A DNA stretch of 64,000 nucleotides from Flaccisagitta enflata (lineage: Eukaryota): positions 35,836,001 through 35,900,000 of the forward strand of contig OZ231126.1 of the NCBI GenBank assembly GCA_965153355.1. Direction: 5' to 3'. Position 1 is the stretch's first letter. Each line of letters begins with the position of its first letter. Position numbers and translations under genes: made by a program. A model generated the notes under the pieces. The model did not search any database. It had not been told where the DNA came from and worked only from the letters and a program-made list of their open reading frames with translations. Shown here piece after piece: positions 13,416 to 59,949 of this stretch.

Positions 13416-14075
13416 TATGAACAATTTTATTTTTCAGTTTATTTCTCCTGGCGCGCTCAACTCATGACTTTATCTTGAATGAGATTCTTTTTTTTCCCAC
13501 CGCCATTTTGTTTTCCAGACGGAACCAAAAGTGACAGTTCAAAATCTCACTCTAGCTTTTTTCGATGTTTTCTAAGCTCACAGTTTGAAATTTTGTCTGC
13601 GTATCCGTCTATAGTTAAATCCCGCTCTGACGAGTTTTTTTTAAAGGAATTACAGCGTAGCACCGCTAGAGCGCACCCGCTATTACGGCATGCCCGCCTA
13701 TAAGGCATAGAGTTTGCTGGATGTAAATTCATAGTCTATGTAACCTTATCATTATTTCCTGTATTGGCTATAAAAGAATTTTGCCTATAACAAACAAGAT
13801 TTTTAAGTCCCTTCAAATCCGTTAAAGCGGACATAACAGAACCATAAATTTTGACGCAGTGTCATCTCTACAACATGTCTAAGGCACATACACCGTATTG
13901 TAAGCTAAGGCCTATATCATGTAAGCGCTGTTCTCGTGATTGCTGTTTTAAAATCCGATCGACTCATTTCAAAATAATCCCGCGTAAACAGTATTACTTT
14001 CTCCGCTTAAAGAGAGTAGATAGCGCACTAAACGATTTTTTTCGAGAAATTTTTTGTGAGACCGAAGGCAAAAAG

Positions 14076-15089
14076 ATGCCATCCAAGAAATCAGACGTCG
14101 CCGAGGATGCTTCCAAGGTGAGACATAGTAAATTCCGCTTTAGCGCGTATTGGGCAAAGCGGGAGAAGTCCAGGTTGTGATTGTAGACTTAATATCAGTA
14201 GAACAACGAATATTATATTTCAAGGGCTAAAACGTAATGTAGAGGTACTTGTTTGTACGATTAAAGTTATGACATTAAGAAGAATTGTGTTCTTTTGCGC
14301 AACCAGGTGGAGGACAATGCCAACAACAACGCTTGCCGGTCGCGTTCCCGGTCCGCCAACAAAAAGCCAAAGGCCAAAGGTAGGACTAATAAAATGTCCT
14401 AACAGTATCTTGATACTACTTTACAAGAAATGCTTGACATCTACACATTAATTGATCGATCTTTTGTTTATTTCATTCTGCAGGGCGTTCAAAGTCCCGT
14501 GCCGGATCCAGAAAACGATCGAAATCGACGAAACGCGCGTCGTCGAAATGCGGTAAAAAATCGCCGGATGTTTGACTTTGAACCCCGCAGTTACGGATGT
14601 CATGGGACTGTCTGTTTTAGACAGATTTCTGCTATTCTCACTACAAGAACTAAAAGATAGCAAAAAGGGACTGAGATAGTGGCGGATTTCCTCTACTTTT
14701 GGCTGCGGCAAAGCGGAGTTTAACTGTTTGTGTTTTCTGACATGTTGATTGGTAAAGAAATGAATACGATAAAAAAGTCATTGCCATAGTAAACACAAGG
14801 TGCGCCATAGAAAGCATCGGTGAATGTCCTTGGAATTGTAAAACATGTCCGTATTGTTTCAGGAAAGGGACGTGCCTCTCGCTCACGCAGTCGCTCCAAG
14901 AGCCGAAAGGGCCGCGGAGGAAGTCGATCCAAGAGCCGAATGGGCCGTTCGAAGAGCCGCGGAGGAAGTCGATCCAAGAGCCGCGGAAAAGGCCGCTCTA
15001 CGGCCAGAGTCAAGGCCCACGCCGTCCGTGCTCATCAAGTGAAGGCTCACAACGTCAAGAGCCACGTCCGTCATTTGTGCAAGAAGTGA
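14076..15089 (+). CDS. Small basic protamine-like / sperm nuclear basic protein candidate, 136 aa; join(14076..14117,14307..14379,14484..14552,14863..15089)
   Basis: Three GT-AG introns with compatible phases (0,1,1); 411 nt in total. Protein: MPSKKSDVAEDASKVEDNANNNACRSRSRSANKKPKAKGRSKSRAGSRKRSKSTKRASSKCGKGRASRSRSRSKSRKGRGGSRSKSRMGRSKSRGGSRSKSRGKGRSTARVKAHAVRAHQVKAHNVKSHVRHLCKK. By hand count 24 Arg + 24 Lys. Exons are GC-rich against AT-rich introns. Confidence 0.82.
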
Positions 15090-15633
15090 ATCCAATGGTT
15101 TCTCAACAATGATCTAATCGAAATGATCAAAGACAGTCAACAGACACGGAAATCATCAACTGTCAGCTGAAATGATAATTGAATGACGATGATTCATACT
15201 CTTTTAGGTTTCAAACAGATACCAGCTCAGATAAACTGTCGACGGATCAGAGATGTAAACATAATCAAGCATGGCTATAGAACAAGGTCCTCTAGGGCCT
15301 GCAAAAAATTGCGACTCACGGACGCGCAGGGACATGCGGGGGGACACCTCCTACCATTAGGGAGGGCCCTGGCCTGATGCGGGCCTGGTTTAAAGTTAGG
15401 CCAAGAAAAAAAAGGCCCATTTTCTTTTTCTCTCAACTTCGGGGCCCTTTTTTAGCAAGTACAGTTGAGCATCACAAGAGCGCATTTCAAGGGACTGGGC
15501 AAAATTATGCCTTTTAGTGAAGCTGCCTTATTACCAATAAAGGAATAAAAACAAAATCCCAATGGGGGGGGGGGGAGAATTTCTCTTGCCGTCCCAGCAA
15601 ACAAGTATCCCTCATTTCGTTTCATTCGGAAAG

Positions 15634-17567
15634 CACTGTGCTTTTAAAAAAAATTCTCTGTGGAAAGTCATATAACTGTGGGTTTTTCTGCATTTTTGAG
15701 CAGTATTGGGGTGTATGAGCATGTAACTAGCAAAAACAAAATCATTCCCCGAGCGCTTTTTGAATAATCTTCAAAATAGAAAATAATTAAACCTATCTTT
15801 TATGCAGATTCTAATGAGTTGTATTGACTCATTTTTTGATTCCATATTATTATTCTATACAAAATTTCCTTTCATTTGATAGGTCACACTACATGGTTTT
15901 ATAGATAAATTAGGTTTTCATATTTTGAACCACCATTATTTTTTTGTAATGGTGACTTGAAAAATAAAAATTTTAATTCTTTGCAAAAATATAGAGTGCG
16001 ACCTATCGAATGAAAGGGAATTTTGTATAGATTAACAATATGTATTCAGAAATTTAGTCAACATATCCCAGAAGAATCTGAATTGAAATTAGGTCTATCT
16101 TTTTCTGATTTTGAAGATTACTCAAAAAACGCTCAGGGAATGATTTTGTTTATGCTAGTTACATGCTGTCACACCCCAATACTGCTCAAAAATGCAGAAA
16201 AACCCACAGTTATATGACTTCTCACTCACACATCTCTGGATACCCCCCCAAAGAGAATCGAAAATACCATTTTTTCTGACTGTGCTATTTGTCTTCAGGA
16301 ACATGTGGGCTACTAAAAAAAACAAAACACAAAAAAATTCTTTTGAAATTTTTTCATTTATTTCACGTTTTAGGTAAAAAAAAGGCATTTTTAGCACTTT
16401 TTAGGCAATAAATTGTTCATGCAGCTTAGAAAATCCAAAAAAATACTGGAAATGTATGGCAATAGATAGAATATACATGTTTTTACCCTTCATAAACAGT
16501 TTTTTTAAGTATCATACAGATTAGAGCTTAAAAATGGTTTAAAAATGACAAAATATGGCTTTTTTCAGAGTAAATTTGTTTTTACAGCATTTTAACTCTC
16601 GAATAATCTTAGAAAAGTGTAGTAGTAGTTTGAGCTTAACTACTTTTACCATGAACAATCAGTAAATTTTGATTTTTTTAGGTTTAGAGTTAAAAAATAG
16701 CTAAAAAATAGCAAAATATTGTTTTTTTAAGTATCTTATAGCAAATAATTATTCATGCACTTTTATAAATCTAAAAAAATACTGGAAATGTGTGGCAATA
16801 GATAGAATATACAAGTTGAAATGCCGTATTAAAAAATTTGAGATTTAAAAATGCTGAAAAAAGTCATATTTCGGCATTTTTACGCCATTTTTAAACTTTA
16901 ATCTTTAAGATATCTAAAAAAATTTTTTGTGAAAGATAAAAAAATGTATATTCTATCTATTGCCATACATTTCCAGTATTTTTTTGGTTTTATAAAAGTG
17001 CATGAATAATTATTTGCTCTAAGATGCTTTAAAAAACAATATTTTGCTATTTTTTTGTTATTTTTTAACTCTAAACCTAAAAAAATCAAAATTTACTGAT
17101 TGTTCAGGGTAAAAGTAGTTAAGCTCAGACTACTACTAAACTTTTCTAGGATTTTTCGAGAGTTAAAATCCTGTAAAAACAAATTTAGACTAAAAAATAC
17201 TAAAAAAAACATATTTTGTCATTTTTAAGCTATTTTTAAGCTCTAATCTGTATGATATTTTCAAAAACTGTTTATCAAGGGTAAAAATGTGTATATTCTA
17301 TCTATTGCCATACATTTCCAGTATTTTTTTGGATTTTCTAAGCTGCATGAACAATTTTATGCCTAGAAAGTGCTAAAAATGCCCTTTTTTTACCTAAAAA
17401 GTAAAATAAATGAAAAAATTTCAGAAGAATTTTTTTGTTTTTTGTTTTTTTTAGTAGCCCACATATTTCTGAAGACAAATCGCACAGTCAGAAAAAATGG
17501 TATTTTCGATTCTCTTTGGGGGGTATCCAGAGATGTGTGCACTCAGAATTGTTTTAAAAGCACAGTG
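15634..17567. mobile_element. CAC-ended (Chapaev/CMC-like) non-autonomous element made of two large palindromes
   Basis: TIR cactgtgcttttaaaa / ttttaaaagcacagtg; 4-bp TSD aaag at 15630-15633 and 17568-17571. Confidence 0.85.
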
Positions 17568-31084: not shown

Positions 31085-31736
31085 GGGGCAGAGAGACATA
31101 GTGTCAGAGGAATTAGTGGTTTAGCAAAGCTACAAAGAGAAGGAATTACAGAGACAGAAAAACCGAAACAACGATTTTACTTTTCTTCTTTGAAGAAAAT
31201 CAATAAAATTGACCCACAAATATTTCTCTCTTTCTCAGTTTTCTGTCTTACTGTCGTTGCCTTTGTTTTCCCGTAATGAAGTTGGTCATGAAACAGCGGG
31301 TGGAAAAGTGTGGCGGCCGTCGGTGGGTGGAGGAAGAGGAAGAGGAGGAGGAGGAAGAGGAGCGATCGACGACGCTCGAAGAAGTGGGAATTTAGGAATC
31401 CCATCGTCAATTATGGATAAACACCAAAGCGTGTTAGGATTCTTTCCCTTAAACTGTGTACGGCTATTGTTTTTTGAAAGGCATATAATAGAGGTGCTAA
31501 TGAAAAACCCCGTTAAATCTGTTTTTATAAGATGATGGCGTTGGTGGTAGCCTGGTTTAGGTGTCGTCCCCGTTGTCGTAACTTTGACCGAAATAAAGTA
31601 AAACGACATTTATCAAATTTTGTACCTAGAACTTGATTGTTACCATCGAGGGACATTCTGTAATAAAGGAGGAAAGTAAGACAGTTCGTTGAATGTTGGT
31701 GTACATCATCGTTGACCGTGGCATTTTGACCTCTCG

Positions 31737-32182
<446 letters not shown>

Positions 32183-33857
32183 TATCTTGGTCGCTGTTTA
32201 CCGAGACGACTTTTATCAAGTCATGGATGTTATGAGGCTCATGTTACTTCGTGGCCGAGATCAAAGGTCGTCTTTTGAAAGGTCGATTTGGGAGGGAAGA
32301 TCATTATTTCAAAACTCAACCGACTGGAAAAGGGTCAACTTGAGTAACTTAGAATCATCATCAAGACATTCTTGGTCCAGGACATAACATCGACCTAAGC
32401 TGGTGCGCTATGCATACCTTAAAATGACCTAAAGCACTATAAAAAAAGACTATTTGCGCCAAAATTTTGGACGGACCGACCGACGGACCGACACAGCAAT
32501 GTGTAGAGTTTCGTGTCCGCGAATGAAAAACGATATTTCAGAGGTGGACTAATTAACACGGCAAAGTTGTTTCAGAGTTCACGTTATTAGTTCATTGCTA
32601 TAATCTACTTAGATAAATCTCTCCAAAGTTCCGTACTCGATTTTCGATCTAATTCTTTGTAATTCAGTTAAAATCCATTGTCCCCCACCCGATTCGCGGC
32701 AACATGCCAAAGCAAAGAGCATTTTGTCCGCAATCCACATTCTTCGTCATTTTTTTTCATGCATGGCAAAATTGAGGAAGCCTTTTGTTTCTTTTTTCCG
32801 TATCTCGGGTGGTTATTTGCAGAAATTCAACCAGTGACCGTCATCAAACATGAGTTAAATTCAATTATGGTTGATTGAGCAGTAATCCTATTTACATAAT
32901 CTCTGAATGTGGATTCGTTAAAAAAAAAGAGATATGAAAGGAAAGAGTTTGCCTTTGATTTTAGGCTTTGAGTTTGAAAAATCTGTATTGACGTTTCTTT
33001 TTCGTTCTTCAATGTTTTTTTTTCTTTTTTTTTTTGCGACAAAGCATCTCTGTTTCATGATGGTTGCCCACTCTTTGTTTGATAATTTATTTGGTTTGCC
33101 TTTCAAAGCACCATATCACGACAATCGTGAAGCCACAGGCCCTTGCTGTAAGCTTACTCGATCAAAAGACAACTACTTAAGATAATGTGAATGAGGGCAC
33201 CATGATGCATCTCTGCTAAGTAGGCCTACCAGCATGCAGAACTAAAGTAATATACGATGAACAGGTTGGGCGATGTTGAGTCTTCTCTTGTTAGCCGGGA
33301 TTCGGGAGCGATCGCCTCATATTCAGCGCTAAGCGCTACACCGTCTTTGCAAGCTATCACACCTACCAGATTGGGAGGCAATCAACCGCAACGCTCCCGC
33401 ATCGCTGTTCAATGAATACCGGCATCTTAAATAACCATACTCTGGGCTGGGTTTGGATCTATCACGTGTCCCCTGACTTGGATTGTAACCATGAAACCAG
33501 CATTTGGGCCCATATAAATTTTGACTTTAGCCATGAAACAGAGATTTTGGCAAAGGGACATGAAACCAGGAATTGGACCTCTGGAGTCTGGAGACACTCG
33601 AATTAGGAAATCGGGACAACAGAAAAGGGTAAGCCTGAAGCTGTAGGAAAAGCAGAGCTTTACTTTTTCGATGCCACCGTCAGGGGCAATAACCACTAAA
33701 ATCAAGTATCACGGCATTCCCCATTGTGCCGAGGTAAAAAAAAACCAATCCTATTCTATTAACGATAGGTGAAATTCATTTTAAAGGGAAATATCGAGAA
33801 TACCGCGGTGAAGAAAAACCGTCCATTAATTTTTGATCACCTCTAATTGGTGAGAGT

Positions 33858-35079: not shown

Positions 35080-35973
35080 CCGTTCATCGTTCAGTTGGTC
35101 CGTTGGTTTATCACTCACGCTCAAATATGAATTTTGATTGGTAATTCATGTTTCTATTGGAAACGTCCTGAATATTAAATTTCATATCGTTTTTAGTCGC
35201 GTGCTACGCGACTCTACACCCCGCTTTGCTTTGTCCGTCCGTCTGTTATGGGTCCATGGTATATATGCAAAAGGGAATTCTGACCAGCACGACGCCGAAA
35301 ACAAAGCAGATGAGTCATAATGTCACAAAATGGAAATGGACGCTTATCAGTCATTGATGGTACTGGGTTTGGAACTTGGGATGTCCACTTAGCGATGCCA
35401 AATGAAAACCATTGCAATATGAAGCGATGATAAGCTATCAGACTAAAACAGTATACGGTCTTTCCTTCATATGGAAGACCAATTTTCGGACGGAAAATAT
35501 GGTGCAGAGGGAAAAGAGAAGAAGCAAGACGCAGATGATGGCGGCCAGTGCCGTCTTCTGAGCTGGCGTCTTTGGACTGGGCGCCAGAGTGGCTTCTAAA
35601 AACGCCATAGAGCCCTCCTCGCATTTCCGAGGCGGCTGCACCAGCGTCAATCCTTGCGAAGCTGGCTTGAAAGAATTGGGCAAGCCTTCGTCGCATTTGT
35701 CGCCTGTGTGAAGAAGAGGGATTGGACAGCTTCAATTGTAGATTCAGCGATTCCCGAAATCGCTGCGAGAGTAATCGAGAATGACATGAAATCCAAGTCC
35801 TGCCTAAATCGCTAGACATCATCAATTGGCTGATGGCGGGAGATCCATAGACCCCGATGCCTTCGTCCACGGTGGTAAAGATGGTTTTCCCAATGCCCCA
35901 ACAGAGCGGACGTTCTTATTGATTTTGGTCCAGGTTTTTCCAAAGTCCTTAGAGAGATGAACGGAGAAGCCGC

Positions 35974-37225
35974 GAAGTTTGGGGTTTCTCGACTGCCCTG
36001 TTCGTCAGCCTTCCTATGCGGATGACTTTACAATCAGCCAGTCGTCTTCTGAATTAGCTGAGATTGAAAGAAGACTGCAGAGCGACGTTGATGCCGTGGA
36101 AGCCTGGGCTATCAGCAAAGAGCTTGTCATCGCTCCTTCCAAGTCTTCAATCACGTTCTTCACCCCCGACAAAGCTCGTCAGTCTCGCACTCACCCGAAT
36201 GTCACCATCGCCGGCGCCCAGATTCCTCTGAACAAGACGGCCAAAATCCTTGGCGTGACCATGGACACCCACTTCTGTTTCCATGCCCACGCTGCTGATT
36301 TGGTCAAATCATGTAAGAAGAAACTGGGAATACTCCGCGCCCTTGCTGGCACCGGTTGGGGCTGCCAGAAGGAATTGCTGCTCCGTACATTTAAAACCTA
36401 CGTCGAGCCTAAGATCAGCTATGCTGCCGCCGTTTGGTCACCAAATGCTAGTGATGCTTCTTTCGGCTCCATCCAAAAGATCCAGAACACCGCTCTTCGC
36501 ATCGCCACCGGCTGCCACAAAGCCGCCACTGTCGAGCATCTCCATCATGAGGCCAAATTCCCTCTCGTCCGTGATCACCTCGATATGCTTTCTGCGCAAC
36601 ATCTTGCCAGCTGTCTCCGTCCCTCGCATCCCTCTAACGCCGTCGTCACCGCTCCTTCCGGCCCCCGTTCCATGAAGGCAACCCTTCAGAGCAAACATCA
36701 GGCTGCCGTCGATCCCTACCTTACTAACGGCTCTGTTGACCCGGCCACTTACAAGACTGTCCTTAAAAACATCCACACGGACTCAATCGCCGCTTCCATC
36801 GAGAAACTGAAAGCCGTCAACCCGCTTCTCAACACCACGCCGCCAGAAATTTCACCATCAGAGAAAAACCTCAGTCGTATCCAGCGCACAACTTTGGCTC
36901 AATTGCGCTCTGGCAGCTGCCGCCTCTTAAACGATTACAAGGTCCTCCTAGGTCACACGCGTTCTGCCTTATGCCCGGAATGTCTTTTCCACCGTCATAC
37001 TTCTAAACATATATTTGAATGTGATGCTGTCCCAACTAATTTGACGCCGCGGGACCTCTGGGTCAACCCGGCAACTGTCGTCGGCTTCCTCCAAACTCTC
37101 CCTTCTTTTTCGTCTTTGCTTCCTGCTAATCCCCCGCCTCCTCCACCTCCTCCTCAACCTCCTGACTCTACTTGACCCAGCGAAGTTTTCTACGTGGCTT
37201 CGCCACCCGGGGAAACAACAACAAC
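35974..37225 (+). mobile_element. 5'-truncated non-LTR retrotransposon (RTE-X-like LINE)
   Basis: 14-bp TSD aacggagaagccgc at 35960-35973 and 37226-37239; (AAC)n 3' tail; short 3' UTR with a stem-loop (gcgaag..cttcgc). Confidence 0.92.
35979..37175 (+). CDS. C-terminal part of LINE reverse transcriptase ORF (no true start)
   Basis: Uninterrupted 398 codons beginning just before the catalytic YADD; KILGVTMD, LRALAGTGWG, IQNTALRIATG, LAQLRSG and the C-terminal CPEC..H..HIFEC motif, all typical of LINE RTs. Confidence 0.9.
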   Translation: MGFLDCPVRQPSYADDFTISQSSSELAEIERRLQSDVDAVEAWAISKELVIAPSKSSITFFTPDKARQSRTHPNVTIAGAQIPLNKTAKILGVTMDTHFCFHAHAADLVKSCKKKLGILRALAGTGWGCQKELLLRTFKTYVEPKISYAAAVWSPNASDASFGSIQKIQNTALRIATGCHKAATVEHLHHEAKFPLVRDHLDMLSAQHLASCLRPSHPSNAVVTAPSGPRSMKATLQSKHQAAVDPYLTNGSVDPATYKTVLKNIHTDSIAASIEKLKAVNPLLNTTPPEISPSEKNLSRIQRTTLAQLRSGSCRLLNDYKVLLGHTRSALCPECLFHRHTSKHIFECDAVPTNLTPRDLWVNPATVVGFLQTLPSFSSLLPANPPPPPPPPQPPDST

Positions 37226-45415: not shown

Positions 45416-53560
<8,145 letters not shown>

Positions 53561-54315: not shown

Positions 54316-54951
<636 letters not shown>

Positions 54952-59135: not shown

Positions 59136-59780
<645 letters not shown>

Positions 59781-59949
59781 GTGACAGGATTGAACCGGAA
59801 GCGAGTCCGCGATAACGCGAAAGGGATGAGGCTAACAATATGGCGTCTACCACGTTTTTGCCTTTTGGTCCATCTCGCCTTTTCTCATTGACTTTGGCCA
59901 TTGCCTTAACAGATCCTTCTATCCAACAACCGGGTCGAAAGAGATTGAA

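What the first reader, a model, noticed from the sequence alone, without database searches (positions are those of the whole stretch)
14076..15089. Hidden 4-exon protamine-like gene: acidic leader, RSKSR core and a (V-K/R-A/S-H-x)4 histidine tail
Seen: four short GC-rich exons join in frame through canonical GT-AG introns into 136 aa. All 5 acidic residues lie in the first 17 aa; about 35% of residues are Arg or Lys; RSKSR occurs five times; the C-terminus VKAHA-VRAHQ-VKAHN-VKSHV-RHLCKK has evenly spaced His plus a Cys. Known: RS-rich basic proteins lacking an H1 winged helix occur as invertebrate protamine-like sperm proteins (e.g. bivalve PL-III), RS tracts are SRPK substrates, and some protamines are made as precursors with a cleaved leader. 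Inference: a lineage-specific chromatin-condensing protein whose His pentapeptide repeat may bind Zn or form a beta-strand DNA-binding module. I do not recognise this tail from any described animal SNBP.
Basis: partly seen in the sequence, partly recalled or inferred. Interest (0 to 1): 0.75.

Follow-up and report, generated by a model that had tools for sequence, protein, structure and literature searches.

The report
Spliced orphan gene for polycationic protein
A small four-exon gene of a marine planktonic animal is real, spliced and expressed, and it encodes a very basic serine/arginine/lysine-rich protein with a conserved histidine-repeat tail that resembles sperm DNA-packaging proteins in composition only, so its function is still untested.

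Summary
Exons 14076-14117, 14307-14379, 14484-14552 and 14863-15089 (+) join through three GT..AG introns into 136 codons.

Transcript contigs from marine metatranscriptomes of three studies carry exactly these junctions, and none covers the intron interiors. Of 19 differences among those contigs, 13 are synonymous in this frame, against 3 and 2 in the other two frames (P = 7e-5).

Related proteins were found only in a marine eukaryote transcript catalogue. A second, diverged lineage (58-69% identity to exon 4) keeps the same layout: an acidic/Asn leader ending in Cys, a variable [K/R]-S core with a KCG cysteine, four V-[KR]-[AS]-H-x pentads, and a C-terminal Cys followed by lysines.

Nothing matched in Pfam, PDB sequences, JGI metagenomes, IMG/VR, the ESM Atlas or the searched literature.

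So this is a genuine orphan family of disordered polycations with conserved cysteines. The sperm-chromatin (protamine-like) reading fits the composition, the cysteines and the narrow distribution. It has no expression or localisation evidence; I give it about 0.42. A somatic RS-type nuclear protein is the main rival. Zinc binding by the tail and cleavage of the leader are untested.

The parts
14050..14075 (+). 5' UTR as far as transcript contigs reach. No ATG lies upstream within it, and A stands at -3 of the start codon.
   Evidence: table 8: X1 record 1 aligns from 14050, and 7 letters of the contig before that do not fit. Sequence.
14076..14117 (+). Exon 1 coding part, aa 1-14: start of the acidic leader.
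   Evidence: Junction 14117|14307 seen in X1 (table 5: skips 189, GT..AG).
14118..14306 (+). Intron 1, 189 nt, GT..AG, 37.6% G+C.
   Evidence: Depth is 0 in bins 14120-14247.
14307..14379 (+). Exon 2, aa 15-38. Holds the end of the leader (Asn run followed by Ala-Cys, Cys24), then the first RSRSRS stretch and a Lys-rich stretch.
   Evidence: The Asn-run/Ala-Cys motif is conserved in P0002-P0011.
14380..14483 (+). Intron 2, 104 nt, GT..AG, 30.8% G+C.
   Evidence: table 5: skips 104, in X1 (2 contigs), X3 (2) and X7 (1).
14484..14552 (+). Exon 3, aa 39-61: basic Ser/Lys/Arg core ending in the conserved Lys-Cys-Gly (Cys61).
   Evidence: The KCG motif recurs in the repeat unit of the second lineage.
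14553..14862 (+). Intron 3, 310 nt, GT..AG, 40.3% G+C.
   Evidence: table 5: skips 310, in X1 (2 contigs), X3 (1) and X7 (1). Depth is 0 in bins 14568-14823.
14863..15008 (+). Exon 4, first part, aa 62-110: RS/KS repeat core. It contains a 32-nt direct repeat 45 nt apart (14907-14938 and 14952-14983, 97% identical). Its length varies between transcripts.
   Evidence: family D4. table 5: in one X1 contig, 85 nt between 14905 and 14991 are replaced by 97 letters.
15009..15086 (+). Exon 4, tail, aa 111-136: four V-[KR]-[AS]-H-x pentads, then Arg-His-Leu-Cys-Lys-Lys. This is the best conserved part of the family.
   Evidence: The pentad His, Val and Lys/Arg columns are invariant or at least 90% conserved in 10 rows. 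The four 15-nt units are only 5-12 of 15 identical as DNA, so they are kept at the protein level.
15087..15232 (+). Stop codon and 3' UTR as far as contigs reach.
   Evidence: table 8: X1 record 1 ends at 15232 and X3 record 10 at 15219. No depth beyond bin 15208-15271.

Best explanation
This is a genuine, spliced and expressed gene of a marine planktonic metazoan. It encodes a 136-residue, largely disordered polycation (pI 12, net charge +43) of an undescribed, lineage-restricted family.

My committed reading is that it is a sperm nuclear basic protein. It would be protamine-like in composition and in how it works, but not by descent from histone H1 or from any known protamine.

Proposed mechanism (all steps below are inferred, none is shown):
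1. The alternating [K/R]-Ser core binds the DNA backbone electrostatically and neutralises it.
2. Phosphorylation of the many Ser residues keeps the protein soluble and weakly binding until it is deposited. Dephosphorylation then drives condensation.
3. The conserved cysteines (end of the leader, the KCG motif in the core, the C-terminal Cys) lock the condensate through disulfides.
4. The conserved His pentad tail together with the terminal Cys either binds a metal such as Zn, as mammalian protamine P2 does, or is a short helical docking or DNA-groove element.
5. The conserved acidic/Asn leader masks charge, or is removed, during maturation.

What is shown: the gene model, its transcription and splicing, purifying selection on this reading frame, and conservation of the architecture.
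For: Gene reality:
- All three junctions are seen in transcript contigs of runs from three studies, with no depth in the intron interiors.
- 13 of 19 contig differences are synonymous in this frame, against 3 of 19 and 2 of 19 in the other frames (P = 7e-5).

Family:
- A second lineage (P0002-P0011) matches end to end: 73 of 120 aligned residues are identical for P0006, and identity to exon 4 is 58-69%.
- It has the same leader motif, the KCG cysteine, the His pentads and the C-terminal Cys followed by lysines.

Features that fit the sperm-protein class:
- K+R is 35-41%, Ser about 20%, and aromatic residues number 0-1 in all 8 full-length members counted.
- pI is 12.0. The passages I read in PMC12216123 give pI >= 12, cysteine clusters and N-terminal precursor cleavage as typical of protamines.
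- There are 3-6 cysteines per member, at conserved places. Cysteine cross-linking is described for SNBPs in PMC12216123 and PMC11607694 (passages).
- The repeat number in the core varies between transcripts.
- Distribution is narrow: no hit outside the marine transcript catalogue.
- Serine phosphorylation at deposition is described as a general property of protamines in PMC11607694 (passages).
Against: - There is no evidence at all on sex, tissue or stage of expression. The runs that hold the transcript are bulk plankton metatranscriptomes.
- The one raw-read run laid gave 0 reads, which is no test.
- K+R at 35% is low for a protamine. Alternating R/K-S tracts also occur in somatic nuclear proteins.
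- The mostly synonymous variation indicates purifying selection, not the rapid evolution reported for many SNBPs. PMC13148410 does report non-dynamic SNBPs in Hymenoptera (abstract).
- There is no winged-helix domain, which the passages I read in PMC13148410 and PMC11607694 treat as the mark of PL-type proteins.
- The tail structure is uncertain. It is a helix at pLDDT 85-88 with a 10-row alignment. In a single-sequence model of a relative it has no secondary structure and a mean pLDDT of 58.5.
- As a helix the tail is not amphipathic (moment at 100 degrees 0.92; 16% of shuffles reach it).
- His residues spaced five apart are not the i, i+4 spacing that favours metal chelation on a helix (my own knowledge).
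Confidence: 0.42

Rival explanations
1. It is a somatic or ubiquitously expressed RS-type nuclear protein. It would be an RNA-binding, speckle, nucleolar or chromatin-associated disordered polycation whose R/K-Ser tracts are substrates of SR-protein kinases. The conserved tail would be a protein-docking element.
For: - There are 25 RS/SR dipeptides and 15 [KR]-S-[KR] triplets in 136 aa, plus two RGG motifs.
- The transcript is present in bulk plankton metatranscriptomes of several studies and years. That is what a generally expressed gene would show.
- Selection on the frame is purifying.
Against: - There is no RRM or any other Pfam domain.
- No relatives were found outside one narrow set of marine transcripts among 1.84 billion representatives. 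Core splicing and nucleolar factors are usually widely conserved.
- The RGG motifs are not conserved in the second lineage.
- The conserved cysteines are unusual for RS domains (my own knowledge).
Confidence: 0.3
2. It is another nucleic-acid-coating role of a disordered polycation. Examples would be a ribosome or mRNA storage factor, or a DNA/RNA protectant of resting eggs or stress stages. The His/Cys tail would act as a metal- or pH-sensitive switch.
For: The charge, the predicted disorder, the conserved His and Cys and the apparent abundance in plankton transcript data (many catalogue variants) are compatible with this.
Against: There is no positive evidence for it. No similarity to any known factor of this kind was found in Pfam or PDB sequences.
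Confidence: 0.15
3. It is not a protein-coding gene. It would be a transcribed low-complexity GC-rich locus whose open frame is a by-product of repeats.
For: - Several other frames and the opposite strand are also open over exon 4. This is usual for R/S/K/G codon sets.
- The window is full of simple repeats.
Against: - The three phase-compatible GT..AG introns are confirmed in RNA.
- Variation is concentrated at third positions in this frame only.
- The non-repetitive leader and tail are conserved at the protein level in a second lineage. The four tail units are only 5-12 of 15 identical as DNA.
Confidence: 0.03

Closest known systems
Bivalve PL-III type protamine-like proteins (Mytilus)
   Same: Both are small (PL-III 11.8 kDa according to PMC13113032, passages; this protein 14.8 kDa). 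Both are Arg/Lys-rich and contain Cys and His residues. Both lack any structure-based identification.
   Different: No sequence similarity could be tested, because I hold no PL-III sequence from a tool. The His pentad tail and the acidic/Asn leader are not features I know from PL-III (recalled). PL-III is shown to be in sperm chromatin; this protein is not.
Mammalian protamine P2 and cephalopod protamine precursors
   Same: All combine an N-terminal, less basic part with a basic body. Cleavage of N-terminal precursor domains is described as common in PMC12216123 (passages). P2 has His plus Cys residues and binds zinc (recalled; one search gave search listings only, which I did not read).
   Different: No Pfam protamine model matches. 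Arg content is far lower here (24 of 136) and Lys equals Arg. The gene has three introns. Cleavage and metal binding are untested here.
H1/H5-derived PL proteins of insects and spiders (Nasonia Nv-PL1/2, Steatoda protamines)
   Same: They are highly basic, have disordered Arg/Lys-rich regions with cysteines, and are restricted to a lineage (PMC13148410 and PMC11607694, passages).
   Different: Those proteins carry or derive from a winged-helix domain. None is detectable here by Pfam or in the models.
RS domains of SR and SR-related proteins
   Same: Both have runs of alternating Arg/Lys and Ser that are plausible kinase substrates.
   Different: There is no RRM. The RS runs are short and interrupted by Lys and Gly. 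The protein has conserved Cys and a His tail, and no orthologues in the wider databases.
Viral protamine-like DNA-binding proteins (baculovirus P6.9)
   Same: It is a small Ser/Arg-rich polycation whose phosphorylation state affects DNA binding (PMC12159748, abstract in the search listing).
   Different: This gene has spliceosomal introns and lies in animal DNA. No relative was found in IMG/VR viral contigs.

Membership tests
Protamines P1/P2 and other Pfam protamine families | Sequence match to the family profile | tested here: not met
   The exon-4 peptide gave 0 Pfam families at E <= 0.01. The full-length relatives P0004 and P0006 and the partial P0012, scanned at E <= 10, gave only chance hits far below the curated cut-offs, and none was a protamine model.
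PL-type SNBPs (histone H1/H5 derived) | Winged-helix globular domain, or clear derivation from one | tested here: not met
   No linker-histone hit in Pfam. AlphaFold2 models show no globular fold. The feature is taken from passages of PMC13148410 and PMC11607694.
Sperm nuclear basic proteins (functional class) | Strongly basic composition (high pI, Arg+Lys-rich) | tested here: met
   pI 12.0, net charge +43, K+R 35.3%. Seven relatives have K+R of 35-41%.
Sperm nuclear basic proteins (functional class) | Expression restricted to the male germ line | not testable with these tools
   Only bulk metatranscriptome contigs hold the transcript. The one raw-read run gave 0 reads, which is no test.
Sperm nuclear basic proteins (functional class) | Presence in mature sperm chromatin | not testable with these tools
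   This needs acid extraction and mass spectrometry of sperm nuclei.
SR proteins | One or two N-terminal RRM domains | tested here: not met
   No RRM in Pfam scans of exon 4 or of the relatives scanned (P0004, P0006, P0012).
SR proteins / SR-related proteins | Long RS domain of consecutive RS/SR dipeptides (the criterion is recalled, not from a call) | tested here: inconclusive
   There are 25 RS/SR dipeptides in 136 aa, but the runs are short (longest RSRSRS) and interspersed with Lys and Gly.
Pentapeptide-repeat proteins (beta-helix) | Match to the pentapeptide-repeat profile and many tandem pentads | tested here: not met
   No Pfam hit. There are only four pentads, and they are modelled as a helix or as disordered.

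The most novel reading that the evidence does not exclude
This is the main sperm DNA-packaging protein of a major group of marine zooplankton. It would be a protamine analogue that arose independently, in which a conserved His-pentad plus Cys tail (metal- or redox-switched) replaces the winged helix of H1-derived PL proteins, and in which the conserved acidic/Asn leader is a cleaved pro-region.
Probability: 0.25. Interest if true: 0.65.

Novelty: new variant of a known kind. Interest (0 to 1): 0.42.

Why it matters
[quoted passage not shown] It would come from a planktonic animal group for which my two literature searches found no SNBP sequence data. It would also provide a short, conserved His/Cys module that is easy to test for metal-dependent DNA condensation.

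If it is somatic, it is still a conserved, abundant, uncharacterised polycation family that is visible only in marine transcript data.

Either way, the practical gain is a verified gene model for a low-complexity gene that standard annotation and homology tools would tend to miss or mask.

Tried and rejected
- Whole-genome search: no genome is held for this window.
- Cluster and name look-up for P0001 and P0002: the service was switched off. The source names, accessions and taxa of the relatives therefore remain unknown.
- JGI metagenome contigs, scanned twice: pattern matches (598 and 15 stretches) but no relative.
- IMG/VR viral contigs: 158 stretches matched a pattern, no relative.
- PDB sequences with the family profile: only a chance hit at E 1.5.
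- ESM Atlas: no usable hit for a full-length relative. For the 31-residue tail, the best scores were 0.80 and 0.77 to unnamed clusters, a level that shuffled proteins reach a third of the time.
- Literature full-text search for six peptide strings of the family: 0 papers. The string RSKSRS together with 'protamine': 1 paper, on mammalian comet assays, which I did not read.
- Earlier findings of this scan: nothing for this genome or this sequence. One unrelated archaeal polycation came up by words.
- Rfam on the whole window: 0 matches.
- Pfam on 82 of the 101 ORFs of at least 75 aa that end before 34.5 kb: I left out 8 that overlap the gene itself and 11 overlapping frames over simple repeats. 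Only two sub-threshold hits resulted, so the neighbours stay unannotated.
- Self-association of the tail (residues 40-74 of the exon-4 peptide, two copies): the complex job gave no verdict (score 0.02, mark 0.32). It counts neither for nor against binding.
- Raw reads of run X15: 0 reads laid out of about 6% of the run read, which is no test.
- Fold search: not run, because the only confident element is a single helix, which gives meaningless matches.
- Taxon: PDB matches of the Ig/fn3 ORFs show a metazoan cell-adhesion-type protein but do not narrow the phylum.

Full report
**1. The observation**

- The ATG is at 14076.
- The exons are 14076-14117, 14307-14379, 14484-14552 and 14863-15089.
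- The three introns are 189, 104 and 310 nt, each GT..AG.
- The CDS is 411 nt and gives 136 residues.
- Exons are 52-61% G+C and introns 31-40%.
- All 5 acidic residues lie within the first 17 positions.
- K+R is 48 of 136 and Ser is 28 of 136.
- RSKSR starts at residues 40, 72, 83, 90 and 98.
- His stands at 114, 119, 124, 129 and 132. Cys stands at 24, 61 and 134.
- pI is 12.0, net charge is +43, and there is no aromatic residue.

**2. Is it a real gene?**

A run search with 13950-15250 listed 15 runs. Fourteen hold part of the stretch, 13 of those are on record as RNA, and they come from 7 studies. All holders have shares of 0.04-0.24, as expected if only the exons are present. Apart from one run labelled with an organism code, the holders are marine metatranscriptomes.

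I laid four runs on 13800-15700.
- In X1, one 588-nt contig covers 14050-14115, 14305-14377, 14482-14551 and 14862-15232. That is all three predicted junctions; the tool marks each as GT..AG with 1-3 letters that fit either side.
- Junction 2 is also in X3 (2 contigs) and X7 (1 contig). Junction 3 is also in X3 (1) and X7 (1).
- Intron-interior bins (14120-14247 and 14568-14823) have depth 0 in all three runs.
- The fourth run, X15 (raw reads), laid nothing, which is no test.
- A second X1 contig (598 nt) is a diverged variant. It has the same junctions, about 7% other letters in the exons, and unalignable 5' and 3' UTRs. In the core, 85 nt are replaced by 97, which is four more codons.
- X7 holds a third variant of exon 2.

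Whether these variants are alleles, paralogues or sibling species cannot be told from metatranscriptome contigs. No second copy lies in the window.

The 19 differences listed table 3 fall at third codon positions and are synonymous in 13 cases. Random single changes in this CDS are synonymous 24.7% of the time, which gives P = 7e-5. In the other two frames only 3 and 2 of the 19 would be synonymous.

Caveats: the contigs are not independent samples, and the table lists only differences that pass its thresholds. Even so, the direction is clear. This frame is translated and is under purifying selection.

**3. Relatives**

With the exon-4 peptide (74 aa, window 14865-15086) I ran these searches.
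- The word-indexed search of 5.8 billion clusters found one longer protein, P0001, among 2689 candidates. Among proteins of similar length it found none in 143 candidates.
- The exhaustive HMMER search of 1.84 billion representatives found one protein, P0002, at E 3.4e-6.
- Searching with P0002 gave 11 proteins at E <= 0.1 among the 8000 candidates scored. All carry the source label 'merc'.

I take that label to be the Marine Eukaryotic Reference Catalog, assembled at the protein level from marine metatranscriptomes. This rests on the abstract of bioRxiv 10.1101/386110 as shown in the search listing. The equation of the label with that catalogue is my inference.

P0001 is a frame-shifted reading of a close variant of this gene, with only the last 45 residues or so in frame.

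P0002-P0011 are a second lineage.
- After about 20-35 residues that are evidently translated 5' UTR, each has a Met-Pro start.
- An acidic stretch with an Asn run ending in Ala-Cys follows.
- Then comes a [K/R]-Ser core with none to three copies of a 16-residue unit containing Lys-Cys-Gly.
- Then come four V-[KR]-[AS]-H-x pentads and a C-terminal Cys-Gly-Lys-Lys.

A script alignment of the spliced window protein with P0006 gives 73 identical of 120 aligned residues, from end to end.

In the 10-row alignment A1, the pentad Val, Lys/Arg and His columns and the Ser-Thr-x-Arg just before them are invariant or at least 90% conserved. The fifth position of each pentad varies. The four tail units are only 5-12 of 15 identical as DNA, so the periodicity is kept at the protein level and is not a recent DNA repeat.

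Caveat: because the catalogue is a protein-level assembly, the variation in repeat number and the frame-shifted chimeras (P0001, P0009, P0010) may partly be assembly artefacts. The length variant seen in a nucleotide contig does not depend on that.

**4. What it is not**

- No Pfam family matches exon 4 at E <= 0.01. The relatives scanned at E <= 10 (P0004, P0006, P0012) gave only chance hits far below their cut-offs.
- No PDB sequence matches.
- JGI metagenome contigs gave no relative.
- IMG/VR gave none.
- The ESM Atlas gave nothing usable.
- No paper in the searchable library prints any of six strings from the family.

So there is no RRM, HMG box, linker-histone winged helix or protamine profile. 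There is also no hydrophobic N-terminus; absence of a signal peptide is read from the sequence.

**5. Structure**

- AlphaFold2 on alignment A1 models residues 46-72 of the exon-4 peptide, which is the tail, as one helix at pLDDT about 85-88. The rest scores about 48-54 per ten-residue block up to residue 40 and 65 for residues 41-50.
- A single-sequence model of the trimmed full-length relative has mean pLDDT 58.5 and no assigned secondary structure. Its highest block (73) falls in the tail region.
- As a helix the tail is not amphipathic. As a strand it has no alternation. The only significant hydrophobic moment is at 144 degrees, which is a harmonic of the five-residue period.

The tail is therefore the one candidate structured or ligand-induced element. 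Its conformation is open.

**6. Surroundings**

The window is animal DNA. Two long ORFs on the minus strand (48085-50325 and 51744-53327) carry Ig and fibronectin-III domains of the DSCAM/NCAM/Robo kind.

Around the gene nothing else could be annotated. Of the 101 ORFs of at least 75 aa that end before 34.5 kb, I scanned 82. I left out 8 that overlap the gene itself and 11 overlapping frames over simple repeats. Only two sub-threshold hits came back. Rfam finds nothing in the window.

A (TC)n tract lies 650 nt upstream, and MITE-like inverted repeats start 430 nt downstream of the mRNA end. The whole window is unusually rich in microsatellites.

The frames open on the opposite strand over exon 4 are what an R/S/K/G codon set produces. 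The GT..AG orientation fixes the transcribed strand as +.

**7. Interpretation**

What is shown: a spliced, expressed, selectively constrained gene for a disordered polycation with conserved cysteines, a conserved acidic/Asn leader and a conserved His-pentad tail. It belongs to a family seen only in marine eukaryote transcript data.

What is inferred: its role. The composition falls in the range of protamine-like sperm proteins. The following are all features described for SNBPs in the passages I read (PMC12216123; PMC13148410; PMC11607694):
- conserved cysteines;
- a less basic N-terminal part;
- repeat-length variation;
- narrow distribution.

That makes a sperm chromatin-condensing protein my best single reading, at about 0.42. 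The mechanism would be electrostatic DNA neutralisation by the [K/R]-Ser core, control by Ser phosphorylation, disulfide locking, and a possible metal or docking role for the tail.

Nothing here speaks to the defining property, which is male-germline expression and presence in sperm nuclei. The same core would suit a somatic RS-type nuclear protein (about 0.30) or another nucleic-acid-coating role (about 0.15). Membership in the H1-derived PL family and in the Pfam protamine families was tested and not met. The claim is 'works like', not 'is a member of'.

**8. Novelty and score**

The family is undescribed as far as my searches reach (for the literature; for the databases). It belongs to a familiar kind, the lineage-specific disordered nuclear polycations, so I rate it a new variant of a known kind. 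Interest is moderate at 0.42. The gene model is a solid result, and the attractive functional story is still only compositional.

Noticed in passing
window 1-64000, e.g. 54317-54949 (GAT x212), 59136-59781 (AAGA x162), 592-869 (TG x139), 31736-32183 (GTT x151): The window is extremely rich in long microsatellites: 44 Tandem Repeats Finder rows with score of at least 150 in 64 kb. This explains the strong local GC and AT skews seen. It may be a hallmark of the source genome.
   Followed up: partly
window 15660-16225 and 16227-17539: Two MITE-like foldback elements lie just downstream of the gene. One has 279-nt arms (80% complementary, 8 nt apart). The other is a nested structure with 322-nt arms (93%), bounded by a 25-nt terminal inverted repeat.
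   Followed up: no
window 48085-50325 (-) and 51744-53327 (-): Very long open exons (747 and 528 codons) encode Ig I-set/Ig_3 and fibronectin-III domains, including a DSCAM C-terminal Fn3-like match. They belong to a cell-adhesion receptor gene and show that the window is metazoan. Part of each ORF overlaps simple repeats.
   Followed up: partly
window 35961-37172 (+): A 404-codon open frame has a weak, sub-threshold reverse-transcriptase match (RVT_1, E 0.0017, 18.5 bits against a cut-off of 29.6). It is probably a decayed retroelement.
   Followed up: no
window 14016-14075 (+), compared with P0002-P0011: The stretch upstream of the ATG is open in the coding frame. Its translation shares short motifs with the translated 5' UTRs of the second lineage, which hints at a conserved 5' UTR. 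All twelve catalogue proteins (P0001-P0012) begin with Met-Gly followed by different residues. This may be a remnant of a cDNA template-switch oligo that marks true mRNA 5' ends; that idea is recalled, not tested.
   Followed up: no
window 14905-14991, and P0004-P0008: The length of the RS/KS core varies. One transcript contig replaces 85 nt by 97. Catalogue proteins of the second lineage carry none to three 16-residue units. The latter may partly be an artefact of protein-level assembly.
   Followed up: partly
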